DNA of 64,000 nucleotides, from contig OZ242365.1 of the NCBI GenBank assembly GCA_965208905.1, forward strand, positions 2,016,001 to 2,080,000, read 5' to 3'. The position numbers and the translations under genes were made by a program. Source of the DNA: Nitrosopumilaceae archaeon (lineage in GTDB: Archaea > Thermoproteota > Nitrososphaeria > Nitrososphaerales > Nitrosopumilaceae). The stretch's first letter is position 1, and each line of letters opens with the position of its first letter. Below the pieces are notes generated by a model, which was not told the origin of the DNA, ran no database searches, and was given only the letters and a program-made list of their open reading frames with translations. Below are positions 43,707 to 50,962 of this stretch, piece after piece.

Positions 43707-44699
43707 TCAAGCTATGGATGACTTTAATTTGTATGATGGCCAACTTGAATATATCTGTGATATCTCCGCCATGTCACTCTGCGATAGATATTTACCGTCG
43801 GATATCTCCGAGAACGTCTCGATCTCCGTTGAATCCACGACTGTGGGTAATACGGCGCCCACTGCATTCTGAGACAGTATAAATTTGATGGCCAACTCGG
43901 TTATGTTCCATCCATTTTCATCGGCGATGGGGCGTAACTGTTCTACTTTTTTTAGGGCAGCCATACGCCATTCGATTTTACGATCACGTCGATGATCATT
44001 CTTGGGTATCTTTGTGTCGGCAGTTATTTTACCAGTTAGTATTCCCGACGCATCTGGAACTCGAACTAGAATGCTTGAGCCCCTCTTCTCAGCCTCAGAT
44101 AAAAGTTCATTTCCTGGAGTCTGCTCCAGTATATTGTATACGGTCTGTATGGCACCAACATTTTTGTTCACCATGGCAGCCATTCCTTCATCCAGCCATC
44201 CTATGGCTGGCCCCAATGCAACTTGTAGCGTCTGTATGGTACCATCATGTATGAGTTTACTCAAGTAGTTGAATGGTTCATCACCACATATGTGATTCAT
44301 CTTGGGATTGTGTAATCCATACATCTCTATTCTGTCTGTCCGTAGTCTCTCCAAAGAGGACCTGAGAGCCTTTTTGGTAAACTCCACATCAAACCGTTGT
44401 GGTAACTCTGCATGCCCAATCTGCTCAACGCTGGAAAAATAATATCCGTATTTGGTGGATATTACAACATCATCCCGTACGCCCTCCAGAGCCTCGCCTA
44501 ACAACCTCTCACTCTTTCCTTTCCCATACATGTCGGCCGTCTCAAAGAAGTTTATTCCACAGTCGTATGCTTTTTTAATCATTCTTTTTGCTTCTGACTC
44601 GTCTATCTTTTTACCCCACCAATCCAGAGCAATAGTCCAGGCACCAAACCCTATCTCTGATATCTGTATGTCAGTGTTACCCAATCGCCTATATTTCAT
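43707..44699 (-). CDS. Aldo/keto reductase
   Basis: RRLGNT..ISEIGFG, FFETADMYG.G.SE, SLERLRTD. Confidence 0.92.
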   Translation of the reverse strand: MKYRRLGNTDIQISEIGFGAWTIALDWWGKKIDESEAKRMIKKAYDCGINFFETADMYGKGKSERLLGEALEGVRDDVVISTKYGYYFSSVEQIGHAELPQRFDVEFTKKALRSSLERLRTDRIEMYGLHNPKMNHICGDEPFNYLSKLIHDGTIQTLQVALGPAIGWLDEGMAAMVNKNVGAIQTVYNILEQTPGNELLSEAEKRGSSILVRVPDASGILTGKITADTKIPKNDHRRDRKIEWRMAALKKVEQLRPIADENGWNITELAIKFILSQNAVGAVLPTVVDSTEIETFSEISDGKYLSQSDMAEISQIYSSWPSYKLKSSIA

Positions 44700-45229
44700 G
44701 ATACTATACTCTGAAACCTATCCAGTTGCAGTTTTATTTGTTTATCATTTAGTACGGGCTGGCCACCATCACATGTAGTATCCGAGTCCAGCCAGGATTT
44801 ACACCCAGAGTACTCGCTTAGTATTGGTATGGTTATTGGGTCAATCTTGAACACCTTCAAAAAGACTGCCCTCATTGGCCTTTGAGGTTGCCATGCGTGT
44901 CGGCTCATAATATACTCTCTACTCCAGATATGAAAATCCTCTAATTGTTCTATTGTATCATCCGAGTCGACATCACATTCGTATAGTACCTGGGCATATG
45001 AGGTTATTGTATTCATATCTGGTGGCGGCCTCTTACGTTGCATATGATACAAGAATGGTTTCCTTATGTTTTGTTCAGTCTGATGCTCCCATGTGGGGTA
45101 TAGTAAAAATTTATGGGATTCAAGCAGAAAACCAGAAGCCGTCTCCATTATGCCACCTTTGCGCAGTATGGCCAACTGCTCTCCGGCCTCCAAGGCACCT
45201 ACCACAGTGGACCACTCTTTGAGCATCAT
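44696..45229 (-). CDS. DUF1802-family protein
   Basis: LKEW...LRKGGI...FLLYPTWEHQ...GCKSW. Confidence 0.85.
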   Translation of the reverse strand: MMLKEWSTVVGALEAGEQLAILRKGGIMETASGFLLESHKFLLYPTWEHQTEQNIRKPFLYHMQRKRPPPDMNTITSYAQVLYECDVDSDDTIEQLEDFHIWSREYIMSRHAWQPQRPMRAVFLKVFKIDPITIPILSEYSGCKSWLDSDTTCDGGQPVLNDKQIKLQLDRFQSIVS

Positions 45230-45236
45230 TGTACCA

Positions 45237-45905
45237 TCATCCTAAACTTTCCACCAGGGGAACAATATCCTGTTTAACACATACCATCATGGGTGTGTCT
45301 GACTGTACATATTTAGAGATTGCAGTTGCGCGTAAATCCATGATCAGATCCTGAAAATCAGACAGATCATCTGTCTCGAATGCCAGCATAAAGTCTTGAT
45401 CATCAAGCCCAAATGAGTATGTGGTGTTCAAGATAATGTCTGGATGTCTTCTACTAACTGCTATGTGCTCGTTCATCATGTGTTGTCTTGACTCTGATGG
45501 CAGTAGATACCACTCTCTGGTCTTTGTAAACGGATATACTACAGCATACTTTTTTGGAGTGGCATCAGTCAGAAATGACACTGTAGTGTTTCCACTACTA
45601 TATATCGACTGTCTAGTACAAGAGAGATAGTTTCGGGATGGTTCTATGTACTTCCCAAATACAGTCGAAAATAGTCTTGTGGGGACTTTTTGCAGATCCG
45701 TAACAGATTTTGCACCCACCCACAGTAAAAGATCAGACTCGGCTCTAATTCCCAGTGTGGAGTATGCCCTATACCTGACACCAGAAAGTTTCAATGCTTG
45801 TTCCACTTCTTTGGCCGATTCAGATTTTCCCATGTCGGCTATCCATCTCCATTTGGGATCTACATGATAAAACATAAATCCAAAATAATACCTTTCATCG
45901 GTCAT
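45237..45905 (-). CDS. Chlorite dismutase / coproheme decarboxylase-like protein
   Basis: YPFTKTREWYLL...MMNEH...TYSFGLDDQDF. Confidence 0.88.
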   Translation of the reverse strand: MTDERYYFGFMFYHVDPKWRWIADMGKSESAKEVEQALKLSGVRYRAYSTLGIRAESDLLLWVGAKSVTDLQKVPTRLFSTVFGKYIEPSRNYLSCTRQSIYSSGNTTVSFLTDATPKKYAVVYPFTKTREWYLLPSESRQHMMNEHIAVSRRHPDIILNTTYSFGLDDQDFMLAFETDDLSDFQDLIMDLRATAISKYVQSDTPMMVCVKQDIVPLVESLG

Positions 45906-45942
45906 ACTTTTTAGCAGTCAATTTGGGTGATATATGTGATTA

Positions 45943-46064
45943 TGGCTTTGAGAAACAAGCCGGCCTTTTGTGGCTTGGTATGTTACATGGCCATCTGCCT
46001 GGACAAGATAGATGCCGAACTAGGTGGTACGATCCCACCCTAGATGTCACCATGACAAAGACCA
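45943..46064 (+). ncRNA. Candidate structured RNA (multi-branch)
   Basis: TGGCTTTG/CAAAGACCA closure; CAAGCCG/TGGCTTG; CATGG/CCATG; CATCTG.CT/AG.TAGATG; CTAGGTGG/CCACC.TAG. Confidence 0.45.
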
Positions 46065-46128
46065 GATTCGTAACTGCCAAATTCATATGAAAATCGTGAC
46101 TCTCATAGCATCATTTTGATTTCGCATA

Positions 46129-46428
46129 CTAATTGTCAGTGTGGCGCTCACGTAGAGCATCATACATCTCCAAAAATTGATCCGGATCCGTCTGCCTATA
46201 CATCTTTTCAAGCGTGCGTACCTTCTGCTCTGATATCTTTTCGCCGCGAATAATCTCATGAAACTCACGTATTATCTGTGCAGGCGTCTTGTTGATATCA
46301 TAGCTGCTCAGTATACGATTTACCGAACTTTTGCACATGGCATCATATATGACATAGCGATACAGCAGATATCCGCCCAGACCAGCAGCGGCTGCCAAAA
46401 TTATTGGTATGATGAATGCGGTCGCCAT
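46129..46428 (-). CDS. Hypothetical membrane-anchored protein
   Basis: N-terminal TM, 99 aa. Confidence 0.75.
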   Translation of the reverse strand: MATAFIIPIILAAAAGLGGYLLYRYVIYDAMCKSSVNRILSSYDINKTPAQIIREFHEIIRGEKISEQKVRTLEKMYRQTDPDQFLEMYDALRERHTDN

Positions 46429-46554
46429 TATACACTTGAAAACACTCTCGATATTTCATTGTTGTCTATAATTTGTCGGGAATTATATACCTGGGTAGAC
46501 AAGGCTAGTTCTGGAGGGTACATGTTTATAAAGTATTATGATGTATAAAACTAC

Positions 46555-47892
46555 ATGTATCGATCTTATGGCTTCCGCGTAAACCTGACGCGCTCTCAGG
46601 CGCGTCACATATCCAAAATACGGGACTCACAGCGGTTCGTGTACAACTGGGCCGTGGAGCGGCTGCTTACTAACCCCACACTCACTACATATGACCTCTC
46701 CAGAGAGTTCACCAAGGTGAGGCGTTCCGTATCGTGGCTGCAAACAGTGGAGCGCATATACCAAAATACGGCCATCCATCAGGCCCGCACTGCTGCGGAT
46801 GTCTCGAACAAATACGGCAACGGCGAGCTGAGTTTCCGCGCCAGAAAGCGCGATAATAAAAAGGCAGTATCATGTGATGTACAGCCGCGATTTGTGGACA
46901 ACAGGCACGCGTCATTGCCGGGCCTTGGTGTTGTTGAGTTGCCTGAGGAGCAGCCATATCAATTTCCACACAACTGGCTGTATGGCTCAAGGTCTTTCCA
47001 TTTGGTGCAGGTTACACCAAAGTCGTGGGGGCACGTCAAGTCATGTGACCATATCTATCGGCTGCACATAACATATGACGTACCAGTACCCGAACGGCGC
47101 GCCAAGACCGGTGTTGTTGCCGGCATAGACAGGGGGATAACAAATCCAACGGTTGTCTGTAAGACAGACCACAACACTTCGTGTATAATATCGTATGACA
47201 CGGCAACCGCATTCCGCACGAACCGTACATGGAATGATGGTGTGCGCCGTACCATATCACACCACAACAAGCATTCTCATACAACACACAAGATGAAACG
47301 CAAACGAGAAAAGTACAATCGTGGTAATGCGAATGACCGCGAGTATGCGGAGTGGCTTCTAGCCAAGAAGATATGCGAGGGCGTGGATGTAATATATGTC
47401 GAACAGCTCAACCTTGAGGCCATGAGCAGGCGCGGTGGTAGGCACAAGAAAGGTCTGAACAGGGGAATGAGGTTTATTCGGCATTATGCAATATTGCGAA
47501 AGATCCGCACCATCGCAGAGCGGCTGGGCATCCGTGTAGTAGAGGTAAGTCCAAAGCACACAAGCCAGGAGTGCAGTGTGTGCGGCTACACAAACAAGGA
47601 GAACCGAGACGGGGAGACATTCAAGTGTCTCAAATGTGACCACGTGGCAAACGCCGACGGCAATGCGTCGGTGAATATGATTCAACGGGGGACCGGTATG
47701 AAGGTTCCCGCGGGGGAAGGAATGGCCCTCGAAAGGCGTGAAATGGGCCGGACCCGGAAGCCACCTGTTTGTGCAGTTCCGGACGCCAGACGGCGGCGTG
47801 AGAATCAAGCGTGCAATCGACCCAAAACATCAAGCGTCATGAAGCACCTGGGAATGTACGCGTATGTTACGCGTGCATACCCAGGTATATAA
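46555..47892 (+). CDS. tnpB: TnpB RNA-guided RuvC nuclease
   Basis: IS605-OrfB-like N-terminus (SYGFRV..T..Q...RFVYNWA), GIDRG, VEQLN, TSQECSVCG...FKCLKC, NADGNASVN; TTTATAAA at 46527-46534. Confidence 0.92.
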   Translation: MYRSYGFRVNLTRSQARHISKIRDSQRFVYNWAVERLLTNPTLTTYDLSREFTKVRRSVSWLQTVERIYQNTAIHQARTAADVSNKYGNGELSFRARKRDNKKAVSCDVQPRFVDNRHASLPGLGVVELPEEQPYQFPHNWLYGSRSFHLVQVTPKSWGHVKSCDHIYRLHITYDVPVPERRAKTGVVAGIDRGITNPTVVCKTDHNTSCIISYDTATAFRTNRTWNDGVRRTISHHNKHSHTTHKMKRKREKYNRGNANDREYAEWLLAKKICEGVDVIYVEQLNLEAMSRRGGRHKKGLNRGMRFIRHYAILRKIRTIAERLGIRVVEVSPKHTSQECSVCGYTNKENRDGETFKCLKCDHVANADGNASVNMIQRGTGMKVPAGEGMALERREMGRTRKPPVCAVPDARRRRENQACNRPKTSSVMKHLGMYAYVTRAYPGI

Positions 47893-47897
47893 TTCCC
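47688..47897 (+). ncRNA. Putative omega/reRNA scaffold of TnpB cassette 2
   Basis: GGGACC/GGTTCC, GGCCC/GGGCC and CCGGAA/TTCCGG stems; long terminal hairpin 47846-47886 overlapping the TIR. Confidence 0.6.
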
Positions 47898-48116
47898 AAT
47901 TTGTCTGACTTGACTCTGTCCTACACGCACAAGTCATGGGAAAACGTATTGTACCACCCTAAAAATGAGTTTGTAATGTGTCTTGGTTAATACATTTGAT
48001 AATTTGGCGCTCAAAGCATATGAGCAGCAGAGCGTACAAGATTGTGGCCTGCAGGTATTGGGATTATAGCATTGCAGATACACATGGAAAAACCAAACCT
48101 CTGTATCAATATATAA

Positions 48117-48644
48117 ATGCAAAACAACAAGATTTCATTAATGATTGTAGATTTGCACATAAACTCAAAAAATGTACTGGTGATAGGTGGCGGAGAGCAG
48201 GCAACAAAGCGAATATCCTCCATAATGGATGAGGACTGTGCAATAACTGTAGTGTCGCCAAAATTCTCTACAAGTATAATGGATATGGCAGGGGATGGTA
48301 ACATAACAATACATCAGAGGGAGGCCGATATAGCAACACTACAGGAGATGAACCCGGATATTGTAATTGTCGCCACAGACAATCACACATTGAATAGTGA
48401 TATAATGCGGGTGGCAAAAGAGATGGGAATCATGCGGTATAGTGTCAGCGATCCTCAGTGCAGCGACTATGCGCATCTGGCCATTGTAAAGTTTAGAGAT
48501 TTGGTACAGATAGCTGTATCCACCAACGGCAAGAGCCCGACCATGGCCAAACGTATTAGAAACAACATAAAAGACAACATCTCCGATATAGTAACTTTGG
48601 ATATAATAGATGGCATACGCGCCGGGAGGCTTCATACACATTGA
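48117..48644 (+). CDS. sirC: Precorrin-2 dehydrogenase (siroheme synthesis)
   Basis: VLVIGGG, VATD, IAVSTNGKSP. Confidence 0.88.
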   Translation: MQNNKISLMIVDLHINSKNVLVIGGGEQATKRISSIMDEDCAITVVSPKFSTSIMDMAGDGNITIHQREADIATLQEMNPDIVIVATDNHTLNSDIMRVAKEMGIMRYSVSDPQCSDYAHLAIVKFRDLVQIAVSTNGKSPTMAKRIRNNIKDNISDIVTLDIIDGIRAGRLHTH

Positions 48645-49894
48645 CCCACATACTCAATGCCCGAGTAACATTCCGCACAATGCCCTTGCACATATTGGAG
48701 AGATATATCATCAAAGATCAAATGGCGGCATATACTACATTTCAGAAGTGTGGTGTAGATGAGTGTGTCATTGTACAGACATGCAACAGGGTGGAGCTCT
48801 TCTGTAAATCTTCAGAGTCAGACTACGCAAGGATAACAGAGGCGTGGGCAAAGGTTACGGATCTAAAAGAAGAAGATTTCAAAGATATCCAAACCGCCGA
48901 GGATGCAGCTGCCATGCATCATCTACTCAAACTAACTGTCGGACTAGACTCGATGGTAGTTGGTGAGGAGCAGATATTGGGTCAGATAAAAGAGTCCATA
49001 TCACATGCTCGGACTGCAAAAGCATCAGGAATTCATCTCAATACATTGTTTGACAAGGCTGCACGATTGGGTACACGAATTAGAAACTCTACGGGTATAG
49101 GAAAAGGTGGCGTGTCAGTGGGGTCTGTGGCAGTAAAACTAGCAGAAGAGAGCATTAATAATTTAAAAAATAAAAAGATACTCATAATAGGTACTGGCGA
49201 GGTGGCCACATTAGTGGCAAAGTCGTTGGTACGACGTGGGTATGACTTTTTTGCCGCTAGTCGCACATTACGAAGGGCCACAGCGTTCTGCAACAAGATG
49301 GGCGGAACTCCTGTTGAGTTTCATGGAGTGTTAAAGAACTTTAACATGTATGATGTGTTGTTTGTAGCAACCACAGCACCATTCTTTTTAGTTGCATATG
49401 ATGCTGTGACCAATCTGCCCCACAAGGATGGCGGCATGATGATACTTGATTTGTCAAACCCAAGAGCCGTAGATGAACGCATAGCACACATATCCGGAAT
49501 TAAAATGATGAATCTAGATCAAATCGGCGAGATGGTTGAACGTAACATAAGAGATCGAAATAACAAGATAAAAGACATAGAGAGAGTCATAAGCGAGGAG
49601 GTGCCATCCCTTGAAGCATCGATGCATCGCTTGGAGGCAGAACCACTAGTAAATGAGGCTTTTCGAAACATGGGGGATGTCTGTGATCGTGAACTGGCCC
49701 GGGCCCTACAGATGTTGGGAGAGGCCGATGAGCGTACCACCCGTATAATGTCAGATATGAGCAGGGCCATTCTAGAGGGCGTCGCATCAACCCCCATGAA
49801 CAACATACGCCGAGCATCCGAGCAGGGTGACAAGGAGATGTTAGAGGCAGCATCAAAGATATTCGACTATTCGGGCAGTCCCATATCTGACTGA
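48641..49894 (+). CDS. hemA: Glutamyl-tRNA reductase
   Basis: QTCNRVE, GLDSMVVGEEQILGQ, IGTGEVA, DLSNPR. Confidence 0.95.
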   Translation: MTHILNARVTFRTMPLHILERYIIKDQMAAYTTFQKCGVDECVIVQTCNRVELFCKSSESDYARITEAWAKVTDLKEEDFKDIQTAEDAAAMHHLLKLTVGLDSMVVGEEQILGQIKESISHARTAKASGIHLNTLFDKAARLGTRIRNSTGIGKGGVSVGSVAVKLAEESINNLKNKKILIIGTGEVATLVAKSLVRRGYDFFAASRTLRRATAFCNKMGGTPVEFHGVLKNFNMYDVLFVATTAPFFLVAYDAVTNLPHKDGGMMILDLSNPRAVDERIAHISGIKMMNLDQIGEMVERNIRDRNNKIKDIERVISEEVPSLEASMHRLEAEPLVNEAFRNMGDVCDRELARALQMLGEADERTTRIMSDMSRAILEGVASTPMNNIRRASEQGDKEMLEAASKIFDYSGSPISD

Positions 49895-50035
49895 TACGAT
49901 AATCTGATTACATACAATACTAGGTTTAACACCACCGATGTAGGCTATTATATAGATGGGATGTCTCACGCCAGAGTCTCTAGAATAACCCCTTGAAATG
50001 TCAGGGTTTTATAGACCCAACTTATACAACTACAC

Positions 50036-50962
50036 ATGATACCAATAGGTGATGTCGTTCAAGATATTACAATAGACTCACAGTCGTCTGTCCGAGACGT
50101 TATAAAACAGATGGAGAATGCAGGAGGCTTCGAGTCGGTAAATGTAGTAGATGGTCTAAACATCATGGATTCTATGATTCAAGATAAAGAGTGTCTGCGA
50201 TTTTTATCATTTGTCGGGGCTACAGTATCAACTGGACTGCGAGGAATAATACGCTCCATGATACAGAGAGGGTGGTTTGATGTTGTGATAACTACATGCG
50301 GTGCACTAGACCATGATATAGCAAGGCATTTTGCTGCATACAACCAAGGCTCCTTTACCATGGATGATGCGCAGTTGGTCAAGCAAGACATACATAGATT
50401 AGGCAATGTGCTGGTGCCCATGGACAGTTATGGCCCACTCATAGAGGAGAAGATGCAGTCATTCCTGCAGGACGAGTATGACAAGGGCGTGCGCAAGATG
50501 ACTACGGCAGATGTCTGTCGTATGATTGGCAGAAATACTGGCGAGTCGTCGTTTCTATACTGGGCAGATAAGACAGATACGACAGTAATTGTCCCGGGTA
50601 TAGTGGACGGTTCGGTGGGTAGTCAGTTGTGGATGTTTGCCGAGAGTCACCCTGACTTTCAGTTGGACATAATTGGAGATTCCAAGATACTGTCATCACG
50701 TATATTCAAGGCCAAAAAGTCGGGAGCCCTAATGGTGGGCGGAGGCATATCCAAGCACCACACATTATGGTGGAACCAATATCGGGGCGGACTCGACTAT
50801 GCGTTATATATAACAACGGCCAATGAGTTTGATGGGAGTCTGAGTGGAGCGCATGTGCGTGAAGCCATATCCTGGGGCAAAGTTACAAACAACGCGCGCC
50901 AGGCGACGCTACATGCAGAAGCCACCATAATACTTCCGTTTTTGTATGCGGCACTCATTTAG
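50036..50962 (+). CDS. dys: Deoxyhypusine synthase
   Basis: GGGISKH, DGSLSGA, EAISWGK. Confidence 0.95.
   Translation: MIPIGDVVQDITIDSQSSVRDVIKQMENAGGFESVNVVDGLNIMDSMIQDKECLRFLSFVGATVSTGLRGIIRSMIQRGWFDVVITTCGALDHDIARHFAAYNQGSFTMDDAQLVKQDIHRLGNVLVPMDSYGPLIEEKMQSFLQDEYDKGVRKMTTADVCRMIGRNTGESSFLYWADKTDTTVIVPGIVDGSVGSQLWMFAESHPDFQLDIIGDSKILSSRIFKAKKSGALMVGGGISKHHTLWWNQYRGGLDYALYITTANEFDGSLSGAHVREAISWGKVTNNARQATLHAEATIILPFLYAALI

What the first reader, a model, noticed from the sequence alone, without database searches (positions are those of the whole stretch)
46470..47905. TnpB carried in a DDE-type cassette: perfect TIRs, 8-bp TSD, no TnpA
Seen: a tnpB with intact D-E-D RuvC residues is bounded by a perfect 20-bp TIR (GGGAATTATATACCTGGGTA) and flanked by an 8-bp duplication (AATTTGTC). 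The stop codon and the last omega-RNA hairpin lie inside the right TIR. Known: canonical tnpB hosts (IS200/IS605 Y1, IS607 serine, IS1341) lack TIRs and make no TSD. GGGAATTAT with an 8-bp DR fits my recollection of IS1595-family ISNwi1-group ends (ggnnatTAT), a group known for passenger-carrying non-autonomous cassettes. Inference: an RNA-guided nuclease has been captured by a DDE system, a prokaryotic parallel to Fanzor capture by eukaryotic DDE transposons. The guide would start with the TSD (AATTTGTCTGACTTGACT...) and would match fully, next to its native upstream flank (..GTCTAT), only at the empty allele. That would suit homing or restoration.
Basis: partly seen in the sequence, partly recalled or inferred. 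Interest (0 to 1): 0.9.

Follow-up and report, generated by a model that had tools for sequence, protein, structure and literature searches.

The report
TnpB cassette moved by IS1595 transposase
A gene for an RNA-guided DNA cutter (TnpB) sits inside a small cut-and-paste style cassette whose ends match those of separate IS1595-family jumping genes in the same archaeal genome, which makes the open question of what TnpB does for such transposons directly testable.

Summary
Window 46478-47897 is a 1420-bp element with perfect 20-bp inverted ends and an 8-bp duplication (AATTTGTC). It holds one gene, an intact tnpB. A congeneric genome (G005) carries the empty site with a single AATTTGTC, so the boundaries are exact.

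The complete 2.2-Mb genome has 75 TnpB zinc-ribbon matches, no Y1 TnpA and no serine recombinase. It also has four intact IS1595-family DDE transposase elements that share the terminal 10-13 bases and make 8-bp duplications. Homologous tnpB cassettes with the same ends and different duplications occur in five other species of the genus, and a second family occurs in another genus.

The last ~220 nt are over-conserved, as expected of an omega-RNA scaffold. The guide and homing idea is untested. This family shows no TAM-like motif beside the duplication. Instead, 20 of 23 insertions lie 10-11 bp from a TATA-box-like block on the tnpB-upstream side.

DDE-linked TnpB with inverted ends was published in 2023 (PMC10691335). 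IS1595 is not named in the texts I read. Verdict: a new variant of a known kind.

The parts
46470..46477 (.). Left copy of the 8-bp target-site duplication (AATTTGTC)
   Evidence: It is present once in the empty site of G005.
46478..46497 (+). Left terminal inverted repeat, 20 bp
   Evidence: The first 13 nt equal those of autonomous IS1595-type elements f and e(L); 10 nt equal those of d.
46525..46532 (+). Putative archaeal TATA box of tnpB (TTTATAAA), starting 30 nt before the ATG. Inferred.
   Evidence: Sequence. In 1028 long ORFs of this genome TTTATA peaks at -30 from the ATG. The block is kept in subfamily a2.
46555..47892 (+). tnpB, 445 aa, with intact RuvC D192/E283/D368 and a CxxC...CxxC zinc finger
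   Evidence: 28 of 30 related loci keep an ORF of 438 aa or more.
47678..47897 (+). Over-conserved 3' region, a candidate omega-RNA scaffold, overlapping the last ~70 codons of tnpB and the right inverted repeat
   Evidence: Majority fraction is 0.86-0.89 here against 0.63-0.82 elsewhere. Third codon positions are conserved at 0.83 against 0.66. The consensus fold has 42 pairs, 3 of them with compensatory changes. The single-sequence fold has z = -2.65. No Rfam family matches.
47846..47886 (+). Terminal hairpin whose 3' arm runs 9 nt into the right inverted repeat
   Evidence: I2. The base of this stem is kept with changes on both sides in 4 of 25 sequences (pair 185/224).
47878..47897 (-). 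Right terminal inverted repeat, 20 bp; contains the tnpB stop codon
   Evidence: All 30 related loci end in ...ATA(A/G)TTCCC followed by unrelated flanks.
47898..47905 (.). Right copy of the 8-bp target-site duplication
47898..47917 (+). Predicted guide region, if the omega-RNA reads out of the right end as in IS605 TnpB. Inference only.
   Evidence: By analogy with IS200/IS605 TnpB (established knowledge; PMC8612924 seen only in a search listing). No RNA end was mapped. In Fanzor1 the duplication belongs to the scaffold and the guide lies beyond it (PMC10711439, passages).
46452..46458 (.). Host TATA-box-like A/T block at -18..-12 from the duplication; probably the promoter of the divergent gene 46129-46428
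   Evidence: At least 6 of 7 A/T at this register in 20 of 23 family insertions, against 1 of 23 on the mirrored side. A promoter weight matrix fits the leftward orientation better in 16 of 23 (p = 0.006). The ATG of the leftward ORF lies 41 nt from the duplication.
46129..46428 (-). Neighbouring host gene, 99 aa, no Pfam family, conserved in the genus; not part of the element
   Evidence: DNA matches to this stretch occur in G005 and in G001, G002, G003, G004, G007 and G008.

Best explanation
The element is a non-autonomous, DDE-type (IS1595 family, ISNwi1-like) transposon cassette. Its cargo is an active-looking tnpB gene plus the RNA scaffold encoded at the gene's 3' end.

Mobility: it has no transposase of its own. 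IS1595-family transposases encoded elsewhere in the genome, on elements with the same terminal bases, bind the inverted ends, cut, and insert the cassette with staggered cuts 8 bp apart. This makes the 8-bp duplication.
- Shown: the insertion geometry, multiple copies, and the candidate partner elements.
- Inferred: which transposase does the work.

Expression: tnpB is probably transcribed from its own TATA box 30 nt upstream as a leaderless mRNA (inferred).

Guide: the conserved last ~220 nt, which include the right inverted repeat, would form the omega-RNA scaffold. Transcription running out of the right end would add a guide made of the duplicated 8 bp plus the right flank. Such a guide matches fully only where the left flank, a single copy of the 8 bp and the right flank are contiguous, that is at an empty or precisely excised site. 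TnpB could then cut that site and let recombination copy the cassette back in (retention or homing). This last step is inference, at about 35-40%.

Insertions of this family are found at a fixed distance from a promoter TATA box, with tnpB pointing away from it. This suggests promoter-linked target choice or strong selection on the site.
For: Geometry:
- Perfect 20-bp inverted ends and an 8-bp duplication.
- An empty site with one copy of the 8 bp in G005, with flanks 94-98% identical.

Mobility:
- A second copy is 100% identical over 1420 bp at another locus, a third is 92% identical, and four copies of a subfamily are 88-89% identical, each of these four with its own 8-bp duplication.

Family of ends:
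- GGGAATTATA occurs 34 times on the plus strand and 34 on the minus strand, against 2 and 0 for the reversed control.
- 27 end pairs have 8-bp duplications with at most 1 mismatch, all different.

Partners:
- Elements of 2131 bp (two copies), 2837 bp and 2690 bp have these ends and encode DDE_Tnp_IS1595 plus Zn_ribbon_IS1595 proteins (E about 1e-40).
- NCBIfam transpos_IS1595 scores 176 bits against a cut-off of 75.
- The terminal 13 of 13 nt are shared with two of them.

No alternative transposase:
- Y1_Tnp: 0 matches in the own genome (99.6% complete, one contig) and 0 of 41 relatives over the cut-off.
- Resolvase: 0 matches in the own genome.

Co-occurrence:
- Transposase homologues occur in 9 of 9 other genomes of the genus and in G015.
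- All 11 genomes with 7 or more TnpB matches have a hit to this transposase, though the G028 hit is weak.

Conservation of the architecture:
- tnpB homologues at about 65-71% nucleotide identity in G001, G002, G006, G007 and G009 carry GGGAATTAT-type ends and distinct 8-bp duplications.

TnpB integrity and RNA region: for the protein; for the RNA region.
Against: - No autonomous element in this genome has the whole 20-bp end. Identity beyond base 13 is poor: 15-20 of 30.
- In G009 the family has identical recent copies, but the closest homologue of this transposase there is 50% identical and holds a stop codon. The abundant 30%-identical IS1595 group has different ends.
- G004 has the transposase but no TnpB.
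- For the guide and homing step:
  - No TAM-like motif lies next to the duplication in 23 insertion sites of this family.
  - No RNA end was mapped.
  - Only 3 of 42 predicted pairs show compensatory change.
  - A cut-and-paste DDE excision already leaves a break, so the benefit of TnpB is less obvious (argument in PMC13565253, section 6.2 read).
Confidence: 0.8

Rival explanations
1. The cassette is moved by a DDE-type transposase other than the IS1595-family proteins found here. Candidates are an enzyme now lost from this genome or one acting from another replicon. On this view the shared terminal bases reflect only distant common ancestry of ends.
For: Only 10-13 terminal bases are shared with the autonomous elements. 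G009 lacks an intact close homologue of the transposase. A second TIR family around tnpB (ends starting GGTTCC) has 17 pairs with 8-bp duplications and no transposase identified.
Against: The 8-bp duplication and GG-starting inverted ends are the family marks of IS1595 (PMC8101967, passages). The transposase co-occurs with the cassettes in 9 of 9 other genomes of the genus and in G015. The other DDE families seen are an rve-type and an IS240-type gene inside the 11.66-kb copy. The ends of the 11.66-kb copy itself are a1-type; the ends of its nested rve and IS240 elements were not examined.
Confidence: 0.1
2. It is an ordinary IS200/IS605-type (IS1341 group) tnpB-only element moved by a Y1 TnpA. 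On this view the inverted ends and the flanking repeat are coincidental.
For: TnpB is classically carried by IS200/IS605 and IS607 elements. Another genus of the family (G213) has ~1.49-kb tnpB elements without a clear duplication.
Against: The empty site shows a true 8-bp duplication. At least 21 tnpB cassettes with these ends have different 8-bp duplications. No Y1_Tnp was found in the own genome, none over the cut-off in 41 relatives, and no Resolvase in the own genome. IS200/IS605 elements have no inverted ends and make no duplications (PMC4810608 and PMC13565253, passages).
Confidence: 0.02
3. The cassette is mobile as described, but TnpB does not serve homing. It may be a passenger kept for another role, such as cutting competing DNA or acting on the nearby promoter, or kept only because the RNA and end sequences overlap its reading frame.
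For: There is no TAM-like motif beside the duplication in this family. Insertions sit at a fixed register from a TATA-box-like block. DDE excision already leaves a break (PMC13565253).
Against: Catalytic and zinc-finger residues are invariant, and 28 of 30 loci keep full-length ORFs over 55-93% protein identity. That argues for selection on an active nuclease. Two sister families show strand-asymmetric motifs directly beside the duplication, as a TAM would: G at -1 in 15 of 15 copies and T at -2 in 13 of 13.
Confidence: 0.2

Closest known systems
DDE-transposase-associated TnpB branches (DDE-1 to DDE-6) of Altae-Tran et al. 2023, PNAS (PMC10691335; section 9 read whole, other passages by search)
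   Same: tnpB sits inside a transposon with inverted terminal repeats. The tnpB 3' end lies within 250 bp of the transposon end. Solo tnpB is flanked by ends like those of transposase-bearing elements, which suggests mobilisation in trans.
   Different: The main text names only IS630 for these branches. A 2026 review (PMC13565253) lists ISL2, IS630 and IS1031. IS1595 does not occur in the main text of either. Here tnpB and the transposase were not found in one element in the four transposase elements examined in G000.
IS1595 family insertion sequences, ISNwi1 group, including passenger-carrying forms
   Same: 8-bp duplications, inverted ends starting GG, and transposases with Zn_ribbon_IS1595 plus DDE_Tnp_IS1595 (family features from PMC8101967). 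Two partner elements here carry a DNA methylase-HNH passenger.
   Different: The window element has no transposase; its only gene is tnpB. The group assignment (end consensus ggnnatTAT) rests on recall and was not checked against ISfinder.
IS1341-group tnpB-only elements of IS200/IS605
   Same: About 1.4 kb, a single tnpB gene, many copies per archaeal genome, and a conserved RNA-like 3' end overlapping the gene.
   Different: Those lack inverted ends and duplications and insert next to a fixed 4-5 nt motif (PMC3627910, PMC4810608, passages). This one has both marks of DDE insertion and no Y1 or serine TnpA in the genome.
Fanzor1 in eukaryotic DDE transposons
   Same: A TnpB-type nuclease in non-autonomous cassettes with inverted ends and duplications, with the RNA scaffold overlapping the inverted end (PMC10711439, passages). 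IS1595 is the prokaryotic kin of the eukaryotic Merlin superfamily (PMC8101967).
   Different: This is a prokaryotic TnpB of ordinary size. The duplication here is 8 bp and variable, so it cannot serve as a fixed TAM or scaffold part as reported for Fanzor1. The words 'Merlin' and 'IS1595' do not occur in the main text of PMC3627910.

Membership tests
IS1595 family (as a non-autonomous derivative) | 8-bp target-site duplication | tested here: met
   Empty site. Feature as stated in PMC8101967.
IS1595 family (as a non-autonomous derivative) | Terminal inverted repeats that begin GG and are shared with elements encoding the family's transposase | tested here: met
   Perfect 20-bp ends. The first 13 nt are identical to elements e(L) and f, and 10 nt to d. 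The match does not extend over the whole 20 bp.
IS1595 family (as a non-autonomous derivative) | Encodes a DDE_Tnp_IS1595 transposase with an N-terminal zinc ribbon | tested here: not met
   There is no such gene in 46478-47897. It is present on partner elements elsewhere. The window element is therefore at most a non-autonomous relative, not an IS in its own right.
IS1595 family, ISNwi1 group | End consensus of the group (recalled as ggnnatTAT) and transposase clustering with ISNwi1 | not testable with these tools
   ISfinder is not on hand. The search for 'ISNwi1' gave 2 papers, seen as listing only; neither title nor abstract start concerns IS1595 ends.
IS1595 family (as a non-autonomous derivative) | Mobilised by an IS1595 transposase | not testable with these tools
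   Only co-occurrence is available: 9 of 9 genus genomes plus G015.
IS200/IS605 (IS1341 group) | No inverted ends, no duplication, insertion next to a fixed 4-5 nt motif | tested here: not met
IS200/IS605 (IS1341 group) | A Y1 (HUH) TnpA available in the genome | tested here: not met
   0 matches to PF01797 in the own genome. 0 of 41 relatives over the cut-off. The control search matched PF01797 in 6 of 14 named control genomes.
IS607 | Serine recombinase TnpA | tested here: not met
   0 matches to PF00239 in the own genome. The control search matched PF00239 in 12 of 14 named control genomes.
TnpB RNA-guided nucleases | Family profile match with RuvC D-E-D and the zinc finger | tested here: met
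TnpB RNA-guided nucleases | Omega-RNA encoded at the 3' end and reading into the flank | tested here: inconclusive
   The 3' ~220 nt are over-conserved and a fold is predicted. There are few compensatory pairs, no Rfam hit, and no RNA ends from contigs.
DDE-associated TnpB branches (PMC10691335) | Phylogenetic placement in one of branches DDE-1 to DDE-6 | not testable with these tools

The most novel reading that the evidence does not exclude
In this archaeal lineage TnpB has moved wholesale from Y1/serine hosts to DDE transposons that make 8-bp duplications. The nuclease then uses a guide built from the duplicated 8 bp plus the right flank, so that it recognises only empty or excised sites. 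The footprint of this would be the strand-asymmetric, family-specific motifs seen only on the tnpB-upstream side of insertions: G at -1 in family b/c and T at -2 in the GGTTCC-ended family. These would be TAMs that decide which random DDE insertions persist. The window's own family has instead coupled insertion to promoter TATA boxes.
Probability: 0.3. Interest if true: 0.85.

Novelty: new variant of a known kind. Interest (0 to 1): 0.62.

Why it matters
Why a cut-and-paste DDE transposon should keep TnpB is an open question. A 2026 review (PMC13565253, section 6.2) calls the association rare in prokaryotes and hard to explain.

This is a natural system that can address it:
- A clean empty site is available.
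- The genome is complete and has 75 TnpB zinc-ribbon matches. At least 36 lie in cassettes with inverted ends and 8-bp duplications.
- No Y1 or serine transposase is present.
- Candidate partner transposases are identified.
- Several tnpB families share one type of end but have different insertion-site signatures.

That allows direct tests of three things: guide origin when the flank is a variable duplication, TAM-dependent retention, and promoter-linked targeting. The compact TnpBs with defined RNA ends may also be of use as editing tools.

Tried and rejected
- Rfam search of 46300-48100 at E up to 1 gave only a chance miRNA match outside the element.
- TAM search for the window's family: positions -12..-1 and the 8 duplicated bases of 23 sites show no motif next to the duplication.
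- Dating the TATA orientation by distance to the nearest ORFs was noisy. Spurious ORFs arise in G+C-rich relatives, and only 6 of 23 sites had a leftward start at 35-43 nt. I replaced this with a promoter matrix.
- Flanks of autonomous elements, to tell transposase preference from cargo-linked bias: 7 elements had duplications (5 in G000, counted once each, plus L074 and L077), which is too few to decide.
- RNA evidence: contigs of four RNA libraries of one study cover parts of tnpB. One 387-nt contig of the a2 subfamily runs through the right end and stops 2 nt beyond it. Contigs cannot give RNA ends, and DNA may be present in the libraries, so this is no evidence for or against a guide. Bins 46422-46543 and 47886-48100 had no cover, which proves nothing.
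- The search for related loci in genome contigs found only 2 loci, both in one Nitrosopumilaceae MAG. The metagenome-contig scan with alignment A2 found none.
- A phylum-wide search found the family at E up to 1e-40 in 4 of 401 genomes. The distant cousins in G213 have no clear duplication.
- The 30%-identical IS1595 group has other ends and was rejected as the partner.
- Not used: the search for homologous proteins, the search of protein representatives, structure prediction, fold search, complex prediction, the protein-atlas search.
- Literature searches for prior description:
  - TnpB + IS1595: 9 papers. None of the 9 titles or abstract starts in the listing describes TnpB in an IS1595-type element; the papers were not opened.
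  - TnpB + terminal inverted repeats + target site duplication + archaea.
  - TnpB + DDE transposase + IS630 + Cas12 + classification.
  - ISNwi1.
  - TnpB, Thaumarchaeota, transposase, insertion sequence.
  - TnpB, DDE, TIRs, TSD, TAM.
  - ISPna2 or ISNha5.
  - Supplements of PMC10691335 and PMC6563490 may list IS1595-linked TnpB. I could not see them.
Full report
**The thing itself.**
- Window 46478-47897 (1420 bp) is bounded by two 20-nt arms that are 100% complementary. It is flanked on both sides by AATTTGTC.
- The 20-mer occurs nowhere else in the window with up to 3 mismatches. None of 100 shuffles gave two matches.
- The only long ORF (46555-47892, 445 aa) is a TnpB. It matches Pfam HTH_OrfB_IS605, OrfB_IS605 and Cas12f1-like_TNB, and NCBIfam guided_TnpB at 124 bits against a cut-off of 100. 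It stays far below the cut-offs of the IS200_TnpB and IS607_TnpB models.
- Alignment to Cas12f (7l48) places D192 and D368 on the RuvC aspartates. E283 sits in a V-E-x-L-N motif two columns from where HMMER put it (the Cas12f residue numbers are recalled).
- D192, E283, D368 and the four zinc-finger cysteines are invariant in 14 family members that are 55-93% identical.
- The stop codon lies inside the right arm. The last hairpin (47846-47886) overlaps the right arm by 9 nt.
- The element sits in a spacer between a conserved 99-aa gene on the minus strand (no Pfam match) and a sirohaem-synthase-like gene followed by glutamyl-tRNA reductase.

**Empty site.**
- In G005, a genome of the same genus, the left flank aligns up to the last base of the left AATTTGTC. 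The right flank aligns from the first base of the right AATTTGTC.
- The two alignments overlap by exactly these 8 bases (G005:C1:98047-98054; flanks 94-98% identical).
- So the element was inserted, or is absent, precisely at the inverted ends, and 8 bp of target are duplicated.
It excludes an IS605-type insertion, which makes no duplication (PMC4810608 and PMC13565253, passages).

**The genome around it.**
- The window lies in a single-contig genome of 2.21 Mb, 99.6% complete.
- The first 10 nt of the end occur 34 times on each strand, against 2 and 0 for the reversed string. 27 pairs of facing ends carry 8-bp flanking repeats with at most one mismatch, and all 27 repeats differ.
- The tnpB cassettes with these ends fall into these groups:
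  - Family a1 is the window's family. It has three 1420-bp copies, one of them 100% identical at another locus and one 92% identical. It also has an 11.66-kb copy whose tnpB is split by about 10 kb of nested DNA holding an rve-type and an IS240-type transposase gene and an Eco57I-like methylase.
  - Subfamily a2 has four copies at 88-89% identity with imperfect ends and duplications TCAGCGTA, AGCCTTGC, AAGGATCC and AGGTTCAG.
  - Families b and c have 17 copies of about 1.47 kb carrying a different TnpB of 451 aa.
  - There are also elements of 1639 and 1554 bp.
- Four further elements with the same terminal bases encode proteins with DDE_Tnp_IS1595 and Zn_ribbon_IS1595 domains (E about 1e-40). 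NCBIfam transpos_IS1595 scores 176 bits against a cut-off of 75.
  - Two are identical 2131-bp copies.
  - One is 2837 bp and one 2690 bp. Both of these also carry an N6/N4 DNA methylase with an HNH domain, split in the latter.
- Short elements of 45-450 bp with the same ends also exist.
- The genome has 75 matches to the TnpB zinc-ribbon domain. It has none to Y1_Tnp and none to Resolvase, and both searches matched in the named control genomes.
- Two other kinds of inverted ends also surround tnpB genes with 8-bp duplications. One starts GGTTCC, with 17 pairs, 13 of them holding tnpB. The other starts TGGGCTG, with 2 pairs.
- In all, at least 36 of the 75 tnpB matches lie in cassettes with inverted ends and an 8-bp duplication: 17 + 4 + 13 + 2.

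**Which transposase.**
- The window's ends share the first 13 nt with elements f and e(L), and 10 nt with d. Beyond that, identity over 30 nt is only 15-20.
- So the partner is plausible but not shown.
- Co-occurrence supports it:
  - Homologues of the 315-aa transposase are found in 13 of 41 genomes searched. Eleven are clear: the own genome, all 9 other genomes of the genus, and G015 of another genus. Two are weak hits, in G028 and G035.
  - TnpB zinc-ribbon matches (E up to 1e-5) occur in 16 of 41 genomes. The eleven genomes with seven or more matches are those with a hit to this transposase, G028 only weakly.
- There are exceptions:
  - G004 has the transposase but no TnpB.
  - G017, G027, G029 and G032 have 1-3 TnpB matches without it.
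  - In G009 the closest transposase homologue is 50% identical with a stop codon.
  - A 30%-identical IS1595 group there and in G005 and G006 has different ends.
- Y1_Tnp was over the cut-off in 0 of 41 genomes.

**Conservation of the architecture.**
- tnpB homologues of the window's family at about 65-71% nucleotide identity in G009, G007, G002, G006 and G001 all end in ...ATA(A/G)TTCCC (30 of 30 loci).
- Where both ends were found, they carry GGGAATTAT-type inverted ends with their own 8-bp duplications.
- G015, in another genus, has cassettes of about 1.85 kb with family-b-type ends and 8-bp duplications.
- The link between tnpB and these ends is therefore old and maintained. It is not a single nested insertion.
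- In a sample of 401 genomes of the phylum, the window's TnpB family was found at E up to 1e-40 in 4. Three are in this genus. The fourth, G213, has distant relatives whose elements show no clear duplication.
- The two nearest public loci bear the title of a Nitrosopumilaceae MAG.

**The RNA part.**
- Across 22 distinct full-length family members, the last ~220 nt (47678-47897) have a majority fraction of 0.86-0.89, against 0.63-0.82 elsewhere.
- Third codon positions of the last 75 codons are conserved at 0.83, against 0.66 in the first 370 codons.
- So something other than the protein is constrained there.
- An alignment of 25 distinct right ends (83% mean identity) gives a consensus fold of 42 pairs. 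Three of them show changes on both sides. Pair 22/31 is CG in 15 sequences and GC in 10. Pair 185/224, at the base of the terminal hairpin, is CG in 20 and UA in 4.
- The window's own sequence folds with z = -2.65.
- This fits an omega-RNA scaffold that runs to the very end of the right inverted repeat. The covariation is thin and no known family matches.
- 28 of 30 loci keep a tnpB ORF of 438 aa or more.
- tnpB has TTTATAAA starting 30 nt before its ATG, where TTTATA peaks upstream of this genome's long ORFs. It probably has its own promoter.

**Guide, TAM and the insertion sites.**
- If the RNA reads out of the right end as in IS605 TnpB, the guide is the right copy of the duplication plus the flank. 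In an empty site the TAM would then be the last bases of the left flank.
- For the window's family this is not borne out. 23 insertion sites show no motif at -5..-1 or in the duplication.
- Instead they show a T-A-T-A-W-A-A-R-G block at -18..-10 on the tnpB-upstream side only. At least 6 of 7 bases at -18..-12 are A/T in 20 of 23 sites, against 1 of 23 at the mirrored place on the right.
- This genome's promoters have a sharply placed C-TTAAATA-C box about 29 nt before the ATG. A matrix built from 409 of them fits the block better in the leftward orientation in 16 of 23 sites (Wilcoxon p = 0.006).
- In the window, the ATG of the conserved leftward gene lies 41 nt from the duplication.
- So this family is found about 10 bp upstream of the TATA box of a gene that is transcribed away from it.
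- The sister families behave differently.
  - Families b and c have G directly before the left duplication copy in 15 of 17 copies in this genome. The two exceptions have non-matching duplications. In 8 of 9 further copies from G006 and G015 the G is also present. The mirrored base is G in 4 of 17. Their duplications are A/T-only, TATA-like 8-mers.
  - The GGTTCC-ended family has T at -2 in 13 of 13 copies and C as the first duplicated base in 10 of 13.
- These strand-asymmetric, family-specific motifs next to the duplication are what TAM-dependent retention would leave. They could equally reflect promoter-linked target choice.
- Families a and b share the terminal 13 bases but not the site signature. 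That argues against a simple preference of one shared transposase. The few autonomous elements with duplications do not settle it.

**RNA libraries.** Contigs from four RNA libraries of one study (labelled sponge metagenome) cover parts of tnpB, mostly from sister copies. They cannot define RNA ends.

**What is known.**
- That TnpB-only elements lack inverted ends and duplications is the standard description (PMC3627910, passage).
- Altae-Tran et al. 2023 (PMC10691335, section 9 read whole) report six DDE-associated TnpB branches, all with inverted terminal repeats. They also report solo TnpB with ends nearly identical to those of transposase-bearing loci. Their main text names IS630.
- A 2026 review (PMC13565253, section 6.2 read whole) lists ISL2, IS630 and IS1031, calls the association rare, and discusses why DDE transposons should gain little.
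- IS1595 occurs in the main text of neither paper.
- A search for TnpB together with IS1595 gave nine papers. None of the nine titles or abstract starts in the listing describes such an element; the papers were not opened.
- The survey of thaumarchaeal mobile elements does not contain the word IS1595 in its main text (PMC6563490).
- For Fanzor1, the inverted end and the duplication form part of the RNA scaffold and the guide lies beyond them (PMC10711439, passages). With a variable 8-bp duplication that solution is not available here.
- IS1595 family marks are taken from PMC8101967 (passages): 8-bp duplication, zinc-ribbon plus DDE_Tnp_IS1595, and kinship with eukaryotic Merlin, whose ends start GG.
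- Supplements were closed and may hold an IS1595 case.

**Verdict.**
- The structural inference is well supported at about 0.8: a tnpB-carrying non-autonomous cassette of an IS1595-type DDE system. About 0.9 of that is for DDE-type insertion as such.
- The homing-by-duplication-guide idea remains an inference at about 0.35-0.4. It gains no support from this family's insertion sites and suggestive support from two sister families.
- This is a new variant of a published kind. Its value is as a clean, multi-family natural system.

Noticed in passing
window 46452-46458; loci L044-L071 (left flanks): Insertions of the window's tnpB family lie at a fixed register from a TATA-box-like block, on the tnpB-upstream side only: at least 6 of 7 A/T at -18..-12 in 20 of 23 sites, against 1 of 23 mirrored. 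The block fits the promoter of a gene transcribed away from the element (16 of 23, p = 0.006).
   Followed up: partly
G000:C1 family b/c copies (e.g. L016, L024, L025); L096, L098, L100, L102-L108: A second tnpB family with the same terminal 13 bases has G directly before the left duplication copy in 15 of 17 copies, plus 8 of 9 copies in two other genomes. The mirrored position shows no such bias. The duplications are A/T-only 8-mers. This is either a candidate TAM or insertion into TATA boxes.
   Followed up: partly
G000:C1, e.g. 239554-241169, 872692-874309, 1677879-1679392: A third set of tnpB cassettes (1.51-1.62 kb, TnpB 470-570 aa) has unrelated inverted ends starting GGTTCC (38 plus-strand and 37 minus-strand sites). 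It has 17 pairs with 8-bp duplications, T at -2 in 13 of 13 and C as the first duplicated base in 10 of 13. No transposase with these ends was identified.
   Followed up: partly
G000:C1:250605-252075 and 2209813-2211265: Two tnpB cassettes have yet another inverted end (starting TGGGCTG) and 8-bp duplications. Several further tnpB groups have inverted ends whose duplications I did not resolve.
   Followed up: no
L023 (G000:C1:1098872-1110533): An a1-type cassette with an intact 8-bp duplication (TTGGCACA). Its tnpB is split by about 10 kb of nested DNA holding an rve-type transposase, an IS240/SWIM-type DDE protein and a 983-aa Eco57I-like methylase.
   Followed up: partly
L019 253-1617 and L020 1187-2645: Two IS1595-type elements carry a DNA methylase fused to an HNH nuclease domain as passenger. 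It is intact in L019 (454 aa) and split into two frames in L020.
   Followed up: no
L017 201-1345 (G000:C1:675271-676415): The 2131-bp transposase element has about 1.1 kb without any ORF of 100 aa or more beside the transposase gene. Its content is unexplained.
   Followed up: no
G000:C1:882738-882782, 658457-658571, 341419-341790, 759618-760047, 177091-177540: Miniature elements of 45-450 bp with the same terminal bases and 8-bp duplications.
   Followed up: no
G004; G009: G004 has 16 matches to the IS1595 transposase but no TnpB match. G009 has 30 TnpB matches and identical recent cassette copies, but its closest homologue of that transposase is 50% identical with a stop codon.
   Followed up: no
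L119-L122 (G213): In another genus, distant relatives of this TnpB sit in ~1.49-kb elements with imperfect inverted ends starting TATAG, a short conserved base pattern before the left end, and no clear duplication. That looks more like the classical IS1341 type.
   Followed up: no
window 47700-47870 (TnpB residues 385-438): The C-terminal tail of TnpB beyond the zinc-ribbon domain is almost invariant at the protein level in 14 members. This is probably because the RNA scaffold is encoded in the same bases.
   Followed up: partly
window 43707-50962: The host neighbourhood holds haem-related genes: a chlorite-dismutase-family protein, a sirohaem-synthase-like NAD-binding protein and glutamyl-tRNA reductase. 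It also holds a DUF1802 protein.
   Followed up: no
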